Source of the DNA: a virus
DNA length: 64,000 nt
Reading direction: 5' to 3' (one strand)
Virus record (IMG/VR): IMGVR_UViG_3300032325_000466
Span: 1 to 64,000 of that record
A program made the position numbers and the translations under genes. Positions 25,862 to 32,261 of this stretch are shown here, piece after piece (the first letter of the stretch is position 1; each line of letters starts with the position of its first letter). The notes beneath the pieces are model-generated. The model was not told the DNA's origin, searched no databases, and saw only the letters and a list, made by a program, of their open reading frames with translations.

Positions 25862-25935
25862 TGGTGGAGGTGGGGAGAATCGAACTCCCACGAAAAGCTT
25901 GCAAAGCTCCCAGGCTCCCATTACATCACACCCCC
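25862..25935 (-). tRNA. tRNA-Ala(TGC)
   Basis: TT-TGC-AA, G3:U70. Confidence 0.9.
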
Positions 25936-26011
25936 ATATTGAAACACACTCTAATTCATTTCCATCATTTGCACTAACGGCATCAGTACTAGAAGTGAAT
26001 GTATTTCAATA

Positions 26012-26096
26012 TGGTGCCCCGAGAGGGACTTGAACCCCCACCCCTTGCGAGACCAGAACCTAAATCTGGCGCGTCTGCCAATTTCGCCACCGGGGC
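26012..26096 (-). tRNA. tRNA-Leu(TAG)
   Basis: TT-TAG-GT, long variable arm. Confidence 0.9.
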
Positions 26097-26147
26097 CATA
26101 TTTCTTGCTAATATTTATACTACCTTGCAAGGTAGCTTTTTATTTAT

Positions 26148-26224
26148 TGGTGCCTCGACCTGGGCTCGAACCAGGGACCCCCGCCTTATCAAGACGGTGC
26201 TCTAACCAACTGAGCTATCGAGGC
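26148..26224 (-). tRNA. tRNA-Ile(GAT)
   Basis: TT-GAT-AA. Confidence 0.9.
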
Positions 26225-26231
26225 ATTATGA

Positions 26232-26376
26232 ATTTCAAGCGCCCAACTATCCCCACTGAGGGGACTCATTGGATTGTCTCAACAGTGCGAGTTTTTACAA
26301 ACCATATTCACGGTAAACTGTGGATGGCTAAGCCACCGCCGCTACTTGGGACTCAAGCCCTGCGTCTAGCTTGAAA
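26232..26376 (-). ncRNA. Candidate structured RNA of about 145 nt
   Basis: TTTCAAGC/GCTTGAAA closing stem, several internal hairpins, no credible ORF. Confidence 0.55.
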
Positions 26377-26379
26377 CTT

Positions 26380-26630
26380 GGAGTTAGCAGTTGATCACTG
26401 CCAACGATATAAAGTGCTTTCTCTTTGCGGCGGTAGTTATAGTACATCTTTAATGAGCGAGTTCTCGCATGACTGAGAAACTTTCCTCACTATGTTTACC
26501 TTCCACCCGCTTCCCGACCAAAAAGAATTATCGCATTGCCAGCGCCAGTTTGGTTAGACTAGAACCACCCGTCATTATCACATGACTTCTCATTGTGCGG
26601 GTCACACTATTGGCTGATTAGGCCAAACGT
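26380..26630 (-). ncRNA. Structured RNA of about 250 nt resembling the manA RNA motif
   Basis: TTGGC..GCCAATAGTGTGACCCGC, GACCCGC/GCGGGT, TGAGAA/TTCTCA and GTCAT/ATGAC pairings; family resemblance from memory only. Confidence 0.5.
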
Positions 26631-26643
26631 CCTTTAAAAATCT

Positions 26644-26734
26644 TGGCGGAGGGAGGCGGAGTCGAACCCCCAAGGCGCTATTAACGCTCAACTGTTTTCA
26701 AGACAGGTACCGTCACCAATCGGTTTGCCCCTCC
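26644..26734 (-). tRNA. tRNA-Ser(TGA)
   Basis: CT-TGA-AA, long variable arm, G73. Confidence 0.9.
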
Positions 26735-26967
26735 AAACATCCTATCATTAAATCCTAACTACAGCCCATTTAACACCAAAGCTTTTTCCTGCTTCTTTGT
26801 GTTTAATGATCTTTGCAAACTCTTCATTACGAAGAGTTATTATAGCGGCTTGGTCATGTTCGACGCAAGCTTTATATACTCTTTTAACTAACTTTTTCTG
26901 TTTCATTTTGATACTCTTTCATGAAAACAGTATTTAGTCGTTATTTATTACAGAAATATTACAACTT

Positions 26968-27219
26968 TTACCTAGCCTGTTCCCATGCCAGATATTTAAT
27001 ATGCTGTGGGTATAGAACATCGTGGTGACGCATCAGTCTGAAAATAGCATCACTGACTTCTTGGCTAAATCCAGCACGTTTGCCTTCCCTGCTATCAGTT
27101 ACGATTCGGTTGATAAAAAGGCTCATCTCAGGGTGGCCCCAAAAGATTTGGATACTTTTACCAATATGGGGGTGCATAGTATCGATAGTAATAAAGTTAG
27201 GGTTATGCTCAAGTTTCAT
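26968..27219 (-). CDS. Hypothetical protein (start corrected to MKLEH)
   Basis: Track start overlaps tRNA-Ser; HPHIGKSIQIFWG...RAGFS. Confidence 0.6.
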   Translation of the reverse strand: MKLEHNPNFITIDTMHPHIGKSIQIFWGHPEMSLFINRIVTDSREGKRAGFSQEVSDAIFRLMRHHDVLYPQHIKYLAWEQAR

Positions 27220-27264
27220 AGGATCATAGGATCCTCGCTGGGGGTTAAAAAAATTAAAAAGATT

Positions 27265-27361
27265 TGGCGGAGAGTGAGGGATTCGAACCCTCGAGCCCAA
27301 GTTTTTGCTCGGACTGTCTTCTTAGCAGGAAGGTGGTTTCAACCAGCTCACCCAACTCTCC
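27265..27361 (-). tRNA. tRNA-Ser(GCT)
   Basis: CT-GCT-AA, long variable arm. Confidence 0.9.
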
Positions 27362-27388
27362 TGAATACGGTTAAAAAAGATTGATATT

Positions 27389-27462
27389 TGGAGCATCCTG
27401 AGAGAATCGAACTCTCGACCGAGGATTGGAAATCCGCTATTTTACCATTAAACTAAGGATGC
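27389..27462 (-). tRNA. tRNA-Gly(TCC)
   Basis: TT-TCC-AA, U73. Confidence 0.9.
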
Positions 27463-27473
27463 GAATTTATATT

Positions 27474-27548
27474 TGGAGCGGGTAGTCGGGTTCGAACCGA
27501 CGACAGTCTCGTTGGCAACGAGATATTCTACCACTGAATTATACCCGC
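27474..27548 (-). tRNA. tRNA-Gly(GCC)
   Basis: TT-GCC-AA, U73. Confidence 0.9.
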
Positions 27549-27589
27549 ATTAAATCTATTTATACTACTATTGACTACTGTAAAAATAT

Positions 27590-27666
27590 TGGTGCCTCCA
27601 CCTGGACTCGAACCAGGAACTTACCGATTATGAGTCGGGTACTCTAACCAATTGAGTTATAGAGGC
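27590..27666 (-). tRNA. tRNA(CAT), probably Ile2 (lysidine type)
   Basis: GA-CT-CAT-AA-TCG arm like ileX. Confidence 0.8.
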
Positions 27667-30390: not shown

Positions 30391-30466
30391 TGGTGCCCAC
30401 CCTGAGGATTCAAACCTCAGCCTAAACAGACAAATTCTGCTGACCAGTCACTGGATCTCAGCGGGC
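30391..30466 (-). ncRNA. tRNA-like RNA with 5-nt anticodon loop (ATTTG) and extended D-stem
   Basis: GCCCGCT/GGTGGGC+ACCA, CCAG-TGA-CTGG, GCAGA-ATTTG-TCTGT, CTGAGG-TTTGAAT-CCTCAG. Confidence 0.75.
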
Positions 30467-30839
30467 ATACTTTACTACATCACCATATTGAAACACACTG
30501 CAATCATCGCTTGCTGGCATCGGTACGACCCGAGCGTATCCAGTAGTTCGTGACGAGCCGATCCTTCCAACCACTGTCGGCCACCCCTTGGGTAGGACAA
30601 TATGCTTCAATGTGGGCTCACAACTTCTACGCCAGTTCGTCACCGGTAGCCCCTTGGCTAGCAGACGCTGTAATCATCTGAGGGGTTTATGGTCTAGACC
30701 ATATTGAAACACACTTCACAATACACAGACGATCCATATGTCTTTACGATATCGTTCTTCGGGCAGAGTAAAGGCTCGTTGGCCCGATTATGTATTCTTT
30801 CTGTTACTAGCCAAGAAATATATTTCAATATAGTAACCC

Positions 30840-30968
30840 ACTGTGGGGTGGACTTCGAAACCACCAACTCGCCGCGCTTTTCCTGTTAAGCTACATACAC
30901 CGACCTTCACCGATGCTGGGAGGAATCGAACCCCATCTCTCTGCGTTTTACCTTAAACTACCACGGGT
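30840..30968 (-). ncRNA. Two tandem D-arm + T-arm units with no anticodon arm
   Basis: TAGCTT..AAGC-10 nt-GGTGG TTTCGAAGT CCACC and TAGTTT..AAAC-10 nt-GGGG TTCGATT CCTC. Confidence 0.55.
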
Positions 30969-31142
30969 CCTCGGAGTCATGACTTCCGAGAATGATAATG
31001 GTTAATTACTCCTTTACCATATATAAACACACTGCCGATTATGACACCGTTGTCCGTGTCTTACTCTAGTCATATACTATCCGTTAAGATAGTATCGTTA
31101 ATTGAGACTGCAATCAATACAACTAAACAATGTGTTTGTATA

Positions 31143-31218
31143 TGGTGGGGGCAGGGGGATTCGAACCCTCCAACTTATCGGTTAAAAGCCGAGTACTCTA
31201 CCATTGAGTTATACCCCC
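31143..31218 (-). tRNA. tRNA-Lys(TTT)
   Basis: CT-TTT-AA. Confidence 0.9.
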
Positions 31219-31272
31219 ATGGGTTTACCACTCTTATCACTAGCCATAACAGGCTCTCCTTTTAAAAAAATT

Positions 31273-31347
31273 TGGTACACCCACGGGGAGTCGAACCCCG
31301 CTTTCCGGCGTGAAAGGCCAGCGTCCTAACCGATAGACGATGAGTGC
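31273..31347 (-). tRNA. tRNA-Glu(TTC)
   Basis: CT-TTC-AC. Confidence 0.9.
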
Positions 31348-31353
31348 ATAGCT

Positions 31354-31431
31354 TGGAGTAGGGAGTCGGATTCGAACCGACGAATCAACTGGGTTGCGAC
31401 CAGTGCCATTAAGCCTCTTTGGTATCCCTAC
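31354..31431 (-). tRNA. tRNA-Cys(GCA)
   Basis: TC-GCA-AC loop (C33 atypical), U73. Confidence 0.8.
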
Positions 31432-31438
31432 ATAAATT

Positions 31439-31523
31439 TGGTGGAGCGTACTGGGATCGAACCAGTCGTGCCCGAAGGCGGCGGATTTACAGTCCACTGC
31501 ATCACCATTGATGCTTCCACTCC
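31439..31523 (-). tRNA. tRNA-Tyr(GTA)
   Basis: CT-GTA-AA, long variable arm. Confidence 0.9.
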
Positions 31524-31616
31524 GTTATTTTTGACTTATGTTTGCATACTGTATTGATTGATATGCAGAATGAGTCTTTCCTTTGATCGGCCCTGAATTT
31601 ACAGCTAGCGCGAATT

Positions 31617-31704
31617 TGGTGGGTAGTGATGGTAACGCTCCACGAGGCAACTTCCTGACTCATTATGCCGTCGGTTTTACAGACCGATGTCAGGGGCACC
31701 ACCC
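31617..31704 (-). tRNA. Non-canonical tRNA-Tyr(GTA)-like RNA lacking a D-arm
   Basis: GGGTGGT/ACTACCC+ACCA, TCGGT-CT-GTA-AA-ACCGA, CCTGAC/GTCAGG long-range pair, atypical T-arm. Confidence 0.7.
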
Positions 31705-31725
31705 ATATTCTTTATTAAACTAAAT

Positions 31726-31802
31726 TGGAAGCGGGTAATGGAATCGAACCATTCTTTACTGGCTTATGAGACCAGTCAGTTCTACCAGAACTGTAACCCG
31801 CA
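31726..31802 (-). tRNA. tRNA(CAT), fMet-like (1:72 mismatch)
   Basis: CT-CAT-AA; TGCGGGT/ACCCGCT. Confidence 0.75.
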
Positions 31803-31812
31803 ATTGTTTTTT

Positions 31813-31889
31813 TGGCGACCCCTGATGGATTCGAACCACCGACACGCGGCTTTGGAGACCGCTGTTCTACCAGGCTGAACTAAGGAGCC
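31813..31889 (-). tRNA. tRNA-Trp(CCA)
   Basis: CT-CCA-AA, G73. Confidence 0.9.
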
Positions 31890-32015
31890 AATTAAAATAC
31901 CATATTGAAGTACATTGCAACTTTGGCAAAGACGTTATATTACGCCAATTAGTGAGGCACCGTCATCGTGCATTCCTAGGAGCACTTTCCAATCTTAAGG
32001 CAATATACTTCAATA

Positions 32016-32163
32016 TGGTAGCAGGACTCGAACCTGCGCTGGAATAGTCCGTCGCACTAGCTATTCCGATCGGTTGCTGCCATGAGTGCGGACTCAGCAT
32101 TTTACTGCTGACTGCCATCCATAATAGGCTCATCCTCGACCGTGTTACCAACTGCACCATACC
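32016..32163 (-). ncRNA. tRNA-elbow RNA with a pseudoknotted insert of about 100 nt
   Basis: GTG-CAGTTGGTAA-CAC D-arm, GCAGG-TTCGAGT-CCTGC T-arm, GGAATAG/CTATTCC and GTCCGCACT/AGTGC..GGAC crossing helices. Confidence 0.65.
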
Positions 32164-32261
32164 ATATTGAAACACACTGACCAATCTGGGTAGTTGTGTC
32201 GTGCCACTGATCCGCGCAAACAGTGTGTTTCAATATAGTGTCTTTTTAAGACACTAAAAAC

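What the first reader, a model, noticed from the sequence alone, without database searches (positions are those of the whole stretch)
25934..32239. Array of 11 stem-bounded cassettes, each delivering a different structured RNA, embedded in the tRNA operon
Seen: arms ACCATATTGAAACACATT / AGTGTGTTTCAATATGGT (15-18 bp) enclose unrelated cargos of about 43-100 nt. Arms covary within a cassette (GAAGGA/TCCTTC at 29239-29335; GAAGTA/TACTTC at 31899-32019). A recurrent U-G wobble works only on the transcribed minus strand, pointing to an RNA helix. The outer ends usually overlap the upstream CCA and the next RNA's 5' GG. A cargo-less version sits at 35704-35742. Known: RNase III cuts helices of this length; T4 has two stable non-tRNA species in its tRNA cluster. 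Inference: a standardised processing or packaging handle that releases a library of small structured RNAs, a candidate undescribed phage ncRNA system.
Basis: partly seen in the sequence, partly recalled or inferred. Interest (0 to 1): 0.92.

Follow-up and report, generated by a model that had tools for sequence, protein, structure and literature searches.

The report
Constant-stem RNA cassettes in phage tRNA array
Eleven RNA hairpins that share one nearly invariant 19-base-pair stem but carry unrelated inserts sit among the tRNA genes of this uncultured freshwater T4-like phage; they belong to a large, uncatalogued RNA family whose cassettes are swapped between phages and whose function is still unknown.

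Summary
Eleven cassettes lie at the stated places, plus a diverged insert-less copy at 35702-35744. All are on the tRNA strand and inside the tRNA array.

The helix is selected as RNA. In 193 family members from more than 120 uncultured phage contigs, G.U pairs outnumber A.C mismatches 359 to 59 on the tRNA strand. Stem pairs also covary.

Two results are new here:
- DNA contigs from three other lake studies lack exactly one cassette, with the joint inside the arms.
- Related inserts mostly sit in unrelated flanks (54 of 67 pairs).

Some insert families covary. Others fold no better than shuffled sequence.

I found no matching Rfam family, GenBank phage record or paper, and the hairpin is absent from cellular genomes apart from three short MAG contigs. 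The phages tested carry no RNase III, dsRBD, Ro or RtcB gene.

The stem most likely acts as a processing and stabilising stalk cut by host RNase III. This is inferred, not shown; no RNA data were available. The stem's sequence constancy leaves room for a specific protein binder.

This scan has reported the same family about ten times on other DNA.

The parts
32161..32239 (-). Cassette C1. The 5' arm begins ACUA; the insert is 43 nt.
   Evidence: Model R1 scores 51.6 bits on the minus strand and 45.1 on the plus strand.
31898..32020 (-). Cassette C2, with covarying arms GAAGUA/UACUUC and an 87-nt insert. It follows a non-tRNA RNA that ends in a T-arm plus ACCA.
   Evidence: repeat I1: 21 nt, 95% complementary.
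31016..31146 (-). Cassette C3. Its arm variant is UAUACAAAC/GUUUAUAUA. It starts on the ACCA of tRNA-Lys(UUU).
   Evidence: Insert z-score -2.37.
30698..30834 (-). Cassette C4. The 5' arm begins ACUA. In contig L010 the core of its insert occurs without the constant stem.
30482..30618 (-). Cassette C5, with a degenerate 5' arm. The 5' part of its insert is shared with L031, with compensatory stem changes.
30279..30395 (-). Cassette C6. It follows a tRNA-like RNA (T-arm, 7-nt acceptor strand, ACCA).
30082..30174 (-). Cassette C7. It ends on G1-G2 of tRNA-Met. Its insert is 95% identical to one in L090, which has different flanks and a different arm variant.
   Evidence: Model R1 scores 41 bits.
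29239..29335 (-). Cassette C8, with covarying arms GAAGGA/UCCUUC. It starts on the ACCA of tRNA-Phe. It is absent from strain variants in three other studies.
   Evidence: One search shows a joint from 29223 to 29325 that skips 101 nt, with 12 shared letters, in runs X3, X9 and X10.
29108..29234 (-). Cassette C9. Its insert is a tRNA-like cloverleaf without CCA.
   Evidence: fold; z-score -2.14; an 18-nt T-arm match to tRNA-Asn.
27688..27781 (-). Cassette C10, with one bulged A in the 5' arm. It starts on the ACCA of the intron-containing tRNA-Leu(UAA). Its insert is 93% identical to one in L045, which also lies behind a tRNA-Leu.
25934..26015 (-). Cassette C11. It runs from the ACCA of tRNA-Leu(UAG) to G1-G2 of tRNA-Ala.
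   Evidence: Model R1 scores 48.2 bits.
35702..35744 (-). Diverged hairpin without an insert (17 bp, 5-nt loop), just upstream of tRNA-Gln.
   Evidence: Model R1 scores 27.4 bits (E 2.8e-4) on the minus strand and 15.3 on the plus strand.
32385..32413 (-). Perfect sigma-70 consensus promoter ahead of C1-C9. The next perfect promoter is at 28838.
   Evidence: 12 of 12 matches. No ORF of note lies on the minus strand between them.
29224..29324 (.). A 101-bp segment, one cassette unit, that is missing in related strains. The break lies within the shared arm sequence.
   Evidence: table 5.

Best explanation
**What they are.** The cassettes are genes for small phage RNAs, co-transcribed with the tRNAs from early sigma-70-type promoters.

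**The closing helix.** Each RNA is closed by the same helix of about 19 bp: 5' ACCAUAUUGAAACACAUU ... AGUGUGUUUCAAUAUGGU 3'. The helix starts on the discriminator and CCA of the preceding tRNA or tRNA-like RNA. It can run into the first G's of the next one.

**Proposed role of the helix.** It is a standard processing and stabilising stalk.
1. A host double-strand endonuclease, most likely RNase III, cuts in the A/U-only lower block (pairs 4-8). This lies about 11 bp below a near-invariant U.G pair.
2. The upstream RNA is left with a short tail, which exonucleases trim back to CCA.
3. The downstream tRNA keeps a short leader, which RNase P removes.
4. The insert is released on an exonuclease-resistant clamp of about 11 bp.

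**Second role of the arms.** The same arms supply the homology by which cassettes are lost, gained and exchanged among co-infecting phages.

**Shown:**
- the helix is selected at RNA level;
- it is co-oriented with tRNAs and joined to their CCA ends;
- cassettes turn over as units;
- some inserts are conserved.

**Inferred:** the cutting enzyme, the cut site, and that the inserts accumulate and act, perhaps as decoys for host factors.
For: **Helix selected as RNA.**
- 160 of 193 hairpins pair better on the tRNA strand and 9 on the other. G.U outnumbers A.C 359 to 59 on the tRNA strand.
- Changes run A-U to G.U to G-C at pairs 12-15, and pair 19 covaries.
- In the formal test 95.3% of cells are paired against 91.9% in shuffles, with 0 of 500 shuffles as high. 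Seven pairs change on both sides.

**Link to tRNAs.**
- 78 of 177 unique hairpins begin with the ACCA of a called tRNA.
- In 21 the next tRNA begins 3 nt inside the 3' arm.
- In the window the upstream tRNAs are single-copy Lys, Phe, Leu-UAA and Leu-UAG. Their CCA ends must be freed from the helix.

**Transcription.** A perfect promoter at 32413 is followed by an ORF-free stretch that holds C1-C9.

**Fit to RNase III rules.**
- The stem is 19 bp, with 11 bp between the A/U block and its top.
- Pairs 4-8 are A/U in at least 97% of hairpins.
- Pair 17 is U.G in 145 of 177.
- The published rules are a minimum of 11 bp, G-C pairs inhibitory next to the cut, and U.G enriched in the distal box in both E. 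coli and B. subtilis (PMC1540722; PMC11780869).

**Enzyme source.** The phages carry no RNase III or dsRBD gene. Two betaproteobacterial genomes searched do carry RNase III. The phage's beta-type tmRNA is the only hint that its host is betaproteobacterial.

**Cassette turnover.**
- One cassette is precisely absent in contigs of three other studies.
- 54 of 67 pairs with related inserts have unrelated flanks.
- One 27-nt insert is identical in seven contigs behind different tRNAs.

**Inserts as RNAs.** There are compensatory changes in two insert families. Insert G+C is 0.50 against 0.386 for the genome.
Against: - No RNA reads were available, so no ends, no cut and no stable product have been seen.
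- RNase III has only weak sequence preferences. The near-invariance of pairs 4-11, 16 and 18 across phages whose proteins are only about 55% identical is more than that enzyme should demand.
- My placing of the RNase III boxes on the stem has no experimental anchor. The published rules come from E. coli and B. subtilis, not from the unknown host.
- Most tRNAs in these arrays are matured without any such hairpin, so the stalk is not needed for tRNA processing as such.
- About half of the hairpins do not follow a tRNA-like end.
- Inserts on average fold little better than shuffled sequence: mean z -0.48, and four of the eleven here have z of about 0 or above.
Confidence: 0.45

Rival explanations
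1. The constant stem is a protein handle, working like a Y RNA. A sequence-specific protein of the phage or host, not yet identified, binds the stem. The variable insert brings a second partner to it or blocks one. Cutting by RNase III is absent or secondary.
For: - Stem sequence, and not only pairing, is nearly fixed. Pairs 4-7, 10, 11, 16 and 18 are the same in at least 95% of 177 hairpins, and U.G at pair 17 in 145.
- An A.C mismatch recurs at pair 9 in 23 hairpins.
- Inserts are modular and exchangeable.
- Some inserts are tRNA-like cloverleaves (C9; family). This matches the tRNA-like modules of YrlA (PMC4201824).
Against: - No candidate binder was found. There is no TROVE/Ro, RtcB or dsRBD gene in G000 or in four complete phages that carry the hairpin.
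- No protein family recurs next to the hairpins in more than 28 of 121 loci. Those that do recur are ordinary T4-type neighbours or homing endonucleases.
- The Rfam YrlA model does not match the cassettes.
Confidence: 0.25
2. The stem is a passive clamp and folding insulator. The ends are made only by the ordinary tRNA enzymes: RNase P on the 3' side, and trimming or RNase E or Z on the 5' side. The strong stem merely protects the spacer RNA from exonucleases and keeps neighbouring tRNAs folding independently.
For: - The stem abuts tRNA ends exactly: 78 upstream and 21 downstream of 177.
- The base before the downstream tRNA's G1 is U.
- The stems are very stable.
- The insert core of C4 exists without the stem in another phage, so the stem is an optional wrapper.
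Against: - With CCA paired in a 19-bp helix, exonucleases and single-strand endonucleases could not free the 3' end of the upstream, single-copy tRNAs.
- This reading does not explain why the sequence, rather than just the stability, is conserved.
- Half of the hairpins have no tRNA at either end.
Confidence: 0.15
3. The cassettes are selfish DNA: a miniature inverted-repeat element or recombination module that spreads in tRNA arrays. The RNA has no function of its own.
For: - The cassettes have terminal inverted repeats.
- One unit is precisely present or absent between strains.
- The same inserts occur in unrelated flanks.
- Arms are sometimes mismatched, as expected after crossovers.
- Homing endonuclease genes sit in the arrays.
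Against: - Orientation is not random: the tRNA strand pairs better in 160 hairpins and the other strand in 9. G.U outnumbers A.C six to one on that strand. DNA-level repeats would not show either bias.
- Inserts are unrelated to each other (131 clusters among 177). Copies of one element would be alike.
- Insert families show compensatory changes.
- No transposase or integrase recurs nearby.
Confidence: 0.07
4. In tandem runs the functional unit is the RNA between two hairpins. The 3' arm of one cassette pairs with the 5' arm of the next. This forms a leader-trailer stalk around a CCA-ending, often T-arm-bearing RNA, as in rRNA operons.
For: - 39 pairs of successive hairpins lie within 160 nt of each other, mostly with 70-125 nt between them. 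Only one of these gaps is a called tRNA.
- Cross-pairing is still 17.2 of 19 on average.
- Several of the RNAs in between end in a T-arm directly before ACCA.
Against: - Arms pair better within their own cassette than across: 18.3 against 17.2 of 19. Cross-pairing is worse in 21 cases, equal in 10 and better in 8.
- The covarying arms of C2 and C8 pair only within their own cassette.
- 34 of the 85 hairpin-bearing loci hold only one hairpin, so an isolated hairpin has no other partner.
Confidence: 0.08

Closest known systems
RNase III processing stalks: the leader-trailer helices around 16S and 23S rRNA, and the phage T7 R1.1-type sites (PMC1540722, PMC6212723, PMC11780869)
   Same: - A long regular helix inside a polycistronic stable-RNA transcript.
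- A/U pairs where the cut would fall.
- A U.G pair near the far end.
- At least 11 bp above the presumed cut.
- The host enzyme would be used, because the phage encodes none.
   Different: - The same stem sequence is reused around more than a hundred unrelated inserts and across many phages.
- The stem is only 19 bp.
- It begins on a tRNA's CCA.
- Cleavage has not been shown.
Phage T4 small RNAs RNAC and RNAD (species 1 and 2) of the tRNA region (PMC3014915)
   Same: - Small non-tRNA RNAs encoded among the tRNA genes of a T4-type phage.
- Their function is unknown.
   Different: - No sequence match to any GenBank phage record.
- T4 has two fixed RNAs. It does not have a constant stem with exchangeable inserts.
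YrlA, the bacterial Y RNA (Rfam RF02553; PMC4201824)
   Same: - A modular RNA: a conserved closing stem plus a variable module.
- In some cassettes (C9, and the family) that module is a tRNA-like cloverleaf.
   Different: - No Ro60/TROVE gene in five phage records.
- The Rfam model does not match the cassettes.
- The stem sequence is unrelated.
- Most inserts are not tRNA-like: only 15 of 177 have a T-arm.
tRNA-punctuated release of other RNAs (mitochondrial transcripts; engineered tRNA-guide RNA arrays). Comparison drawn from my own knowledge.
   Same: Non-tRNA RNAs whose ends coincide with tRNA ends in one precursor.
   Different: - Here a dedicated constant helix overlaps the CCA and G1.
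- Half the copies have no tRNA neighbour.
Miniature inverted-repeat elements and integron cassettes
   Same: - Constant inverted ends around variable cargo.
- Arrays of cassettes.
- Gain, loss and exchange of whole units.
   Different: - Strand-specific G.U pairs and a fixed orientation show selection on the RNA.
- No transposase or integrase recurs nearby.
- Units are only 80-140 nt.

Membership tests
RNase III substrate (E. coli / B. subtilis rules) | A regular helix with at least 11 bp between the cut and the helix top | tested here: met
   The stem is 19 bp. There are 11 bp between pair 8 and pair 19. The rule comes from PMC1540722.
RNase III substrate (E. coli / B. subtilis rules) | No G-C or C-G pairs in the proximal box next to the scissile bonds | tested here: inconclusive
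   Pairs 4-8 are A/U in at least 97% of 177 hairpins. The cut site is unknown, so the register is assumed.
RNase III substrate (E. coli / B. subtilis rules) | A distal box with a U.G wobble about 10-12 bp from the cut | tested here: inconclusive
   Pair 17 is U.G in 145 of 177 hairpins, and in 19 of 19 in alignment A3. U.G enrichment in the distal box is stated in PMC11780869. The register is not anchored.
RNase III substrate (E. coli / B. subtilis rules) | rnc-dependent double cut that leaves 2-nt 3' overhangs | not testable with these tools
   No RNA run holds the phage.
Any Rfam 15 family | A match to a curated covariance model | tested here: not met
   The window was searched at the gathering threshold and at E up to 1. 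Twelve related loci were searched at the gathering threshold. Only tRNA, tmRNA and a group I intron matched, and nothing matched the cassettes.
YrlA / Y RNA | Encoded beside a Ro60 (TROVE) gene | tested here: not met
   PF05731 is absent from G000 and from G001-G004.
YrlA / Y RNA | A match to RF02553 | tested here: not met
   The only weak hits (E 0.004-0.14) fall on true tRNAs, not on cassettes.
Miniature inverted-repeat transposable element | Copies share a homologous interior | tested here: not met
   The window's inserts are mutually unrelated. The family has 131 clusters among 177 inserts.
Miniature inverted-repeat transposable element | Insertion in either orientation, with no strand-specific pairing | tested here: not met
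   The tRNA strand pairs better in 160 hairpins and the other strand in 9. G.U outnumbers A.C 359 to 59.
T4 RNAC/RNAD-type small RNAs | Encoded in the tRNA cluster of a T4-type phage | tested here: met
   The Gp23 capsid gene is present in G000-G004. The cassettes lie inside the tRNA array.
T4 RNAC/RNAD-type small RNAs | Sequence relatedness to the T4 RNAs | tested here: not met
   No blastn match among 50,697 GenBank phage records for the whole array, for C7, or for the commonest cassette.
Intrinsic terminator | A G+C-rich hairpin followed by a run of U | tested here: not met
   The terminator scan calls no site at any cassette. The stems are A/U-rich and are followed by tRNA or other RNA sequence.

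The most novel reading that the evidence does not exclude
The tRNA arrays of freshwater T4-like phages hold an exchangeable library of hundreds of small effector RNAs. All are delivered in one universal wrapper that a dedicated factor recognises. The inserts act as decoys or inhibitors of host tRNA-directed or RNA-directed defences. 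Phages trade them by recombination at the constant arms, which would make this an RNA counterpart of an anti-defence island or an integron.
Probability: 0.2. Interest if true: 0.92.

Novelty: new variant of a known kind. Interest (0 to 1): 0.75.

Why it matters
Phage tRNA arrays are currently read as codon supply or as protection against tRNA-cutting defences. The non-tRNA RNAs inside them, including T4's RNAC and RNAD, have had no known role for fifty years.

This family has properties that make the question tractable:
- It shows that such RNAs are numerous and conserved.
- They are organised in a standard, exchangeable format.
- Cassettes turn over between strains, a pattern common in loci under conflict with the host.
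- The constant stem gives a handle for finding all members by search.
- The same stem gives a handle for pull-downs and for testing processing in a laboratory host, even though no carrier phage is in culture.

If the stem proves to be a compact, portable RNase III or protein-binding module, it would also be a useful part for expressing defined small RNAs.

Tried and rejected
**Expression.** No RNA holder is listed for this stretch, so expression and ends could not be examined.

**Searches that found nothing on the cassettes.**
- GenBank phage records: no match for the array, for C7 or for the commonest cassette.
- Rfam: no family on any cassette.
- Papers: the arm sequence and four topic searches gave nothing on this element.

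**Cellular genomes.**
- The paired pattern was absent.
- The single 18-mer arm gave 27 hits, about what chance predicts.
- Only three short contigs in freshwater MAGs hold real hairpins, and these are probably mis-binned phage pieces.
- So the stem does not mimic a host rRNA or tRNA operon helix.

**Phage-encoded partner.** RNase III, the CCA-adding enzyme family, TROVE, RtcB and dsRBD were not found.

**Neighbouring protein partner.** No ORF family occurs in more than 28 of 121 loci.

**Inserts as antisense RNAs.**
- There is no significant complementarity to the phage's own 191 kb.
- In a sample of 151 Burkholderiales genomes, all listed matches fell on tRNAs.

**Ideas considered and dropped.**
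- A permuted-tRNA reading (T-arm, then stem acting as acceptor, then a downstream D-arm). I dropped it because complete tRNAs flank several hairpins.
- Terminators, because no U-runs follow the stems.

**Papers read without result.** The text of PMC6212723 gave no usable positional rule without its figures.

Full report
**1. What is there**

The window is the first 64 kb of a 191-kb uncultured virus record, estimated 54% complete. It carries a T4-type major capsid gene.

A tRNA array lies on the minus strand from about 25.1 to 35.7 kb:
- ARAGORN tRNAs.
- Rfam adds one more, at 31442-31523.
- A further tRNA-Leu(UAA) is split by a group I intron.

Six perfect sigma-70 consensus promoters point the same way.

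The arm motif occurs 20 times with up to three mismatches, against 1.1 expected. In the whole 191-kb record, all 16 exact matches to a loose arm pattern fall between 25934 and 32176.

The inserts are 43-101 nt long. They are unrelated to each other and to the rest of the genome.

**2. RNA or DNA**

On the minus strand the arms read ACCAUAUUGAAACACAUU and AGUGUGUUUCAAUAUGGU. This gives a U.G pair near the top of the stem, where the plus strand would have a C.A mismatch.

I collected relatives by scanning IMG/VR for the exact 15-mer.

Where neighbouring tRNA genes define the strand (193 hairpins):
- the tRNA strand pairs better in 160, the other strand in 9, and they tie in 24;
- G.U pairs outnumber A.C mismatches 359 to 59 on the tRNA strand.

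Among 177 unique hairpins:
- pairs 4-8 are always A/U;
- pairs 12-15 move along A-U, G.U, G-C paths;
- pair 17 is U.G in 145;
- pair 19 covaries freely;
- nothing pairs beyond pair 19.

A formal count on 19 short members gave 95.3% of cells paired, against 91.9 ± 0.6% in shuffles. Seven pairs changed on both sides, and no shuffle reached the observed covariation score. Versions with the partner slid by one to three columns paired at most 50%.

A covariance model built from those members scores the minus strand higher than the plus strand at every copy in the window. It finds nothing outside the array. It gives the insert-less hairpin at 35702-35744 27.4 bits, E 2.8e-4.

The helix is therefore an RNA feature, made in the same direction as the tRNAs.

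**3. Relation to tRNAs**

In the family:
- 78 of 177 hairpins begin with the last four bases (ACCA) of a called tRNA, mostly Leu, Glu and Lys;
- in 21 the next tRNA starts three bases inside the 3' arm.

About a dozen more follow a tRNA-like end, and 75 follow no T-arm at all.

In the window:
- four cassettes follow real, single-copy tRNAs (Lys, Phe, Leu-UAG, Leu-UAA);
- two end on the first G's of tRNA-Met and tRNA-Ala;
- the others abut non-tRNA RNAs, several of which carry T-arms.

**4. The inserts**

Diversity is very high: 131 sequence clusters among 177 inserts.

Thermodynamic evidence for structure is modest:
- the mean z-score in the family is -0.48;
- in the window, z runs from +1.1 to -2.4.

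Insert G+C is 0.50 in a genome of 0.386. Two insert families that I aligned keep their predicted stems through compensatory changes. One of these is a miniature cloverleaf with a T-arm, and C9 in the window is likewise a tRNA-like cloverleaf without CCA.

Four window inserts have relatives elsewhere:
- C7 is 95% identical to an insert in L090, which has different flanks and a different arm variant.
- C10 is 93% identical to one in L045, which lies behind the same kind of tRNA-Leu.
- The 5' part of C5 recurs in L031.
- The core of C4 recurs in L010 without any constant stem.

The inserts therefore look like independent RNA modules, and the stem looks like an optional wrapper.

No RNA run holds this phage, but twenty DNA runs from eleven studies of lakes and fresh water hold parts of it.

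I laid contigs of four runs on the array:
- Contigs from three studies join 29223 to 29325, skipping 101 bases, with 12 letters shared across the joint. This is exactly cassette C8 plus its 3-nt linker. In those strains tRNA-Phe runs straight into C9.
- A tRNA-like segment at 29755-29844 is replaced by 187 other letters.
- 159 letters are added at 31266.
- The GIY-YIG homing endonuclease gene is missing.

Across the family, 54 of 67 hairpin pairs with related inserts have unrelated flanks on both sides.

One 27-nt insert (CUAAGAGUCCAGGUUCAGAGCGUGGCA) is identical in six contigs and differs at one base in a seventh. It lies behind tRNA-Glu, Pro or Lys or behind no tRNA. Its arms differ between copies and are sometimes mismatched, as expected after crossovers inside the arms.

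The arms therefore also serve, at least in effect, as recombination points.

**6. What cuts or binds the stem**

G000, and five complete genomes of T4-type phages that carry the hairpin, have no RNase III gene. G000 and four of those five also lack dsRBD, Ro and RtcB genes. The CCA-adding enzyme family was sought only in G000 and was absent.

No protein family recurs beside the hairpins in more than 28 of 121 loci. Those that do recur are ordinary T4-type neighbours (dCMP deaminase, lysozyme, an exonuclease) or HNH endonucleases.

The upstream tRNAs need a free CCA, yet that CCA is paired in a 19-bp helix. A double-strand endonuclease is therefore the simplest way to release it. The stem fits the published RNase III rules:
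- at least 11 bp between the cut and the helix top;
- G-C pairs inhibitory next to the scissile bond (PMC1540722);
- U.G enriched in the distal box in both E. coli and B. subtilis (PMC11780869).

On that reading the cut falls in the A/U block of pairs 4-8, which would leave:
- the upstream RNA with a few extra bases after CCA;
- a short leader for RNase P on the downstream tRNA;
- the insert on an 11-bp clamp.

This is inference. The register is not anchored, and the host is unknown. The phage's own tmRNA matches the betaproteobacterial permuted model, which is only a hint. RNase III alone also does not explain why the sequence of the stem is so constant. For that reason I give sizeable weight to an unidentified sequence-specific binder.

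**7. The other way of pairing**

In tandem runs every 3' arm can also pair with the next 5' arm, around the RNA that lies between them.
- 39 pairs of successive hairpins lie within 160 nt of each other.
- Only one of these gaps is a called tRNA.
- Arms pair better within their own cassette than across (18.3 against 17.2 of 19).
- The covarying arms of C2 and C8 pair only within their own cassette.

The hairpin is therefore the selected unit, but cross-pairing remains largely possible. It could matter for folding or processing.

**8. Known or new**

I found no match in any of these:
- Rfam 15;
- 50,697 GenBank phage records;
- papers, searched for the arm sequence and for four topics;
- bacterial and archaeal species genomes, apart from three short contigs in freshwater MAGs.

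The closest things in print are:
- RNase III processing stalks;
- T4's RNAC and RNAD, whose roles are unknown (PMC3014915);
- YrlA, whose defining features are not met here.

Earlier notes of this scan describe the same family on about ten other stretches of DNA and reach similar conclusions. The family is thus a repeated finding of the scan, though apparently not of the literature. This window's phage is at the high end, with eleven copies. Five complete relatives have one to three each.

**9. Verdict**

- The cassettes are real members of an undescribed, widespread phage RNA family with a constant, RNA-selected stem and exchangeable inserts.
- Processing by host RNase III is the best-supported mechanism but is unproven.
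- The function of the inserts is unknown.

Noticed in passing
window 27778-28070 (minus strand): tRNA-Leu(UAA) is interrupted in the anticodon loop by a group I intron of 208 nt (28035-27828; Rfam 58.8 bits). With the intron removed, ARAGORN calls an 85-nt tRNA-Leu(UAA). A similar intron hit lies in contig L044.
   Followed up: yes
window 29501-29574 (minus strand): A near-copy of tRNA-His (29591-29665) with an abnormal anticodon loop. ARAGORN reports a two-base anticodon. It may be a decaying or non-standard tRNA.
   Followed up: no
window 31442-31523 (minus strand): A tRNA seen by Rfam only (32.3 bits). By eye it looks like a long-arm tRNA-Tyr(GUA). ARAGORN misses it.
   Followed up: no
window 33414-34289 (+) and 34272-34832 (-): Two free-standing homing endonuclease genes, one GIY-YIG and one HNH, lie inside the tRNA array. 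The GIY-YIG gene is replaced by 113 letters in contigs of three other runs. The HNH family recurs in 11 of 121 related arrays.
   Followed up: partly
window 28242-28270, 28514-28542, 28810-28838, 32385-32413, 32561-32589, 33403-33431 (minus strand): Six perfect 12-of-12 sigma-70 consensus promoters (TTGACA, 17 nt, TATAAT). Three of them precede small ORFs of 54-71 codons with no known family.
   Followed up: no
G000 110600-111000 (outside the window; locus L166 601-1003): The phage encodes a permuted (two-piece) tmRNA that matches the betaproteobacterial model (92.9 bits, cut-off 84). L017 and L013 carry similar genes. This hints at a betaproteobacterial host.
   Followed up: partly
window 30835-31015, 31613-31714, 32261-32367, 26240-26640 (minus strand): Other ORF-free, non-tRNA stretches of the array are conserved in one to six related contigs. 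Several carry T-arm-like hairpins and end in ACCA. They are further unnamed RNA modules.
   Followed up: partly
L017 2602-2666, L095 601-665 and five other contigs: A 27-nt insert with a T-loop-like GGUUCAGAG centre is identical in six contigs and differs at one base in a seventh, each with different flanks. It is the most widespread single cargo in my sample.
   Followed up: partly
family-wide, pair 9 of the stem: A recurrent arm variant (UAUAAAAAC / GUUUCUAUA) keeps an A.C mismatch at pair 9 in 23 of 177 hairpins. It may be a deliberate feature of a sub-family.
   Followed up: partly
window 29755-29844 and 31266-31271: Strain variants replace a weak tRNA-like segment with 187 other letters and add 159 letters between tRNA-Glu and tRNA-Lys. 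The array therefore varies by whole modules even between near-identical strains.
   Followed up: no
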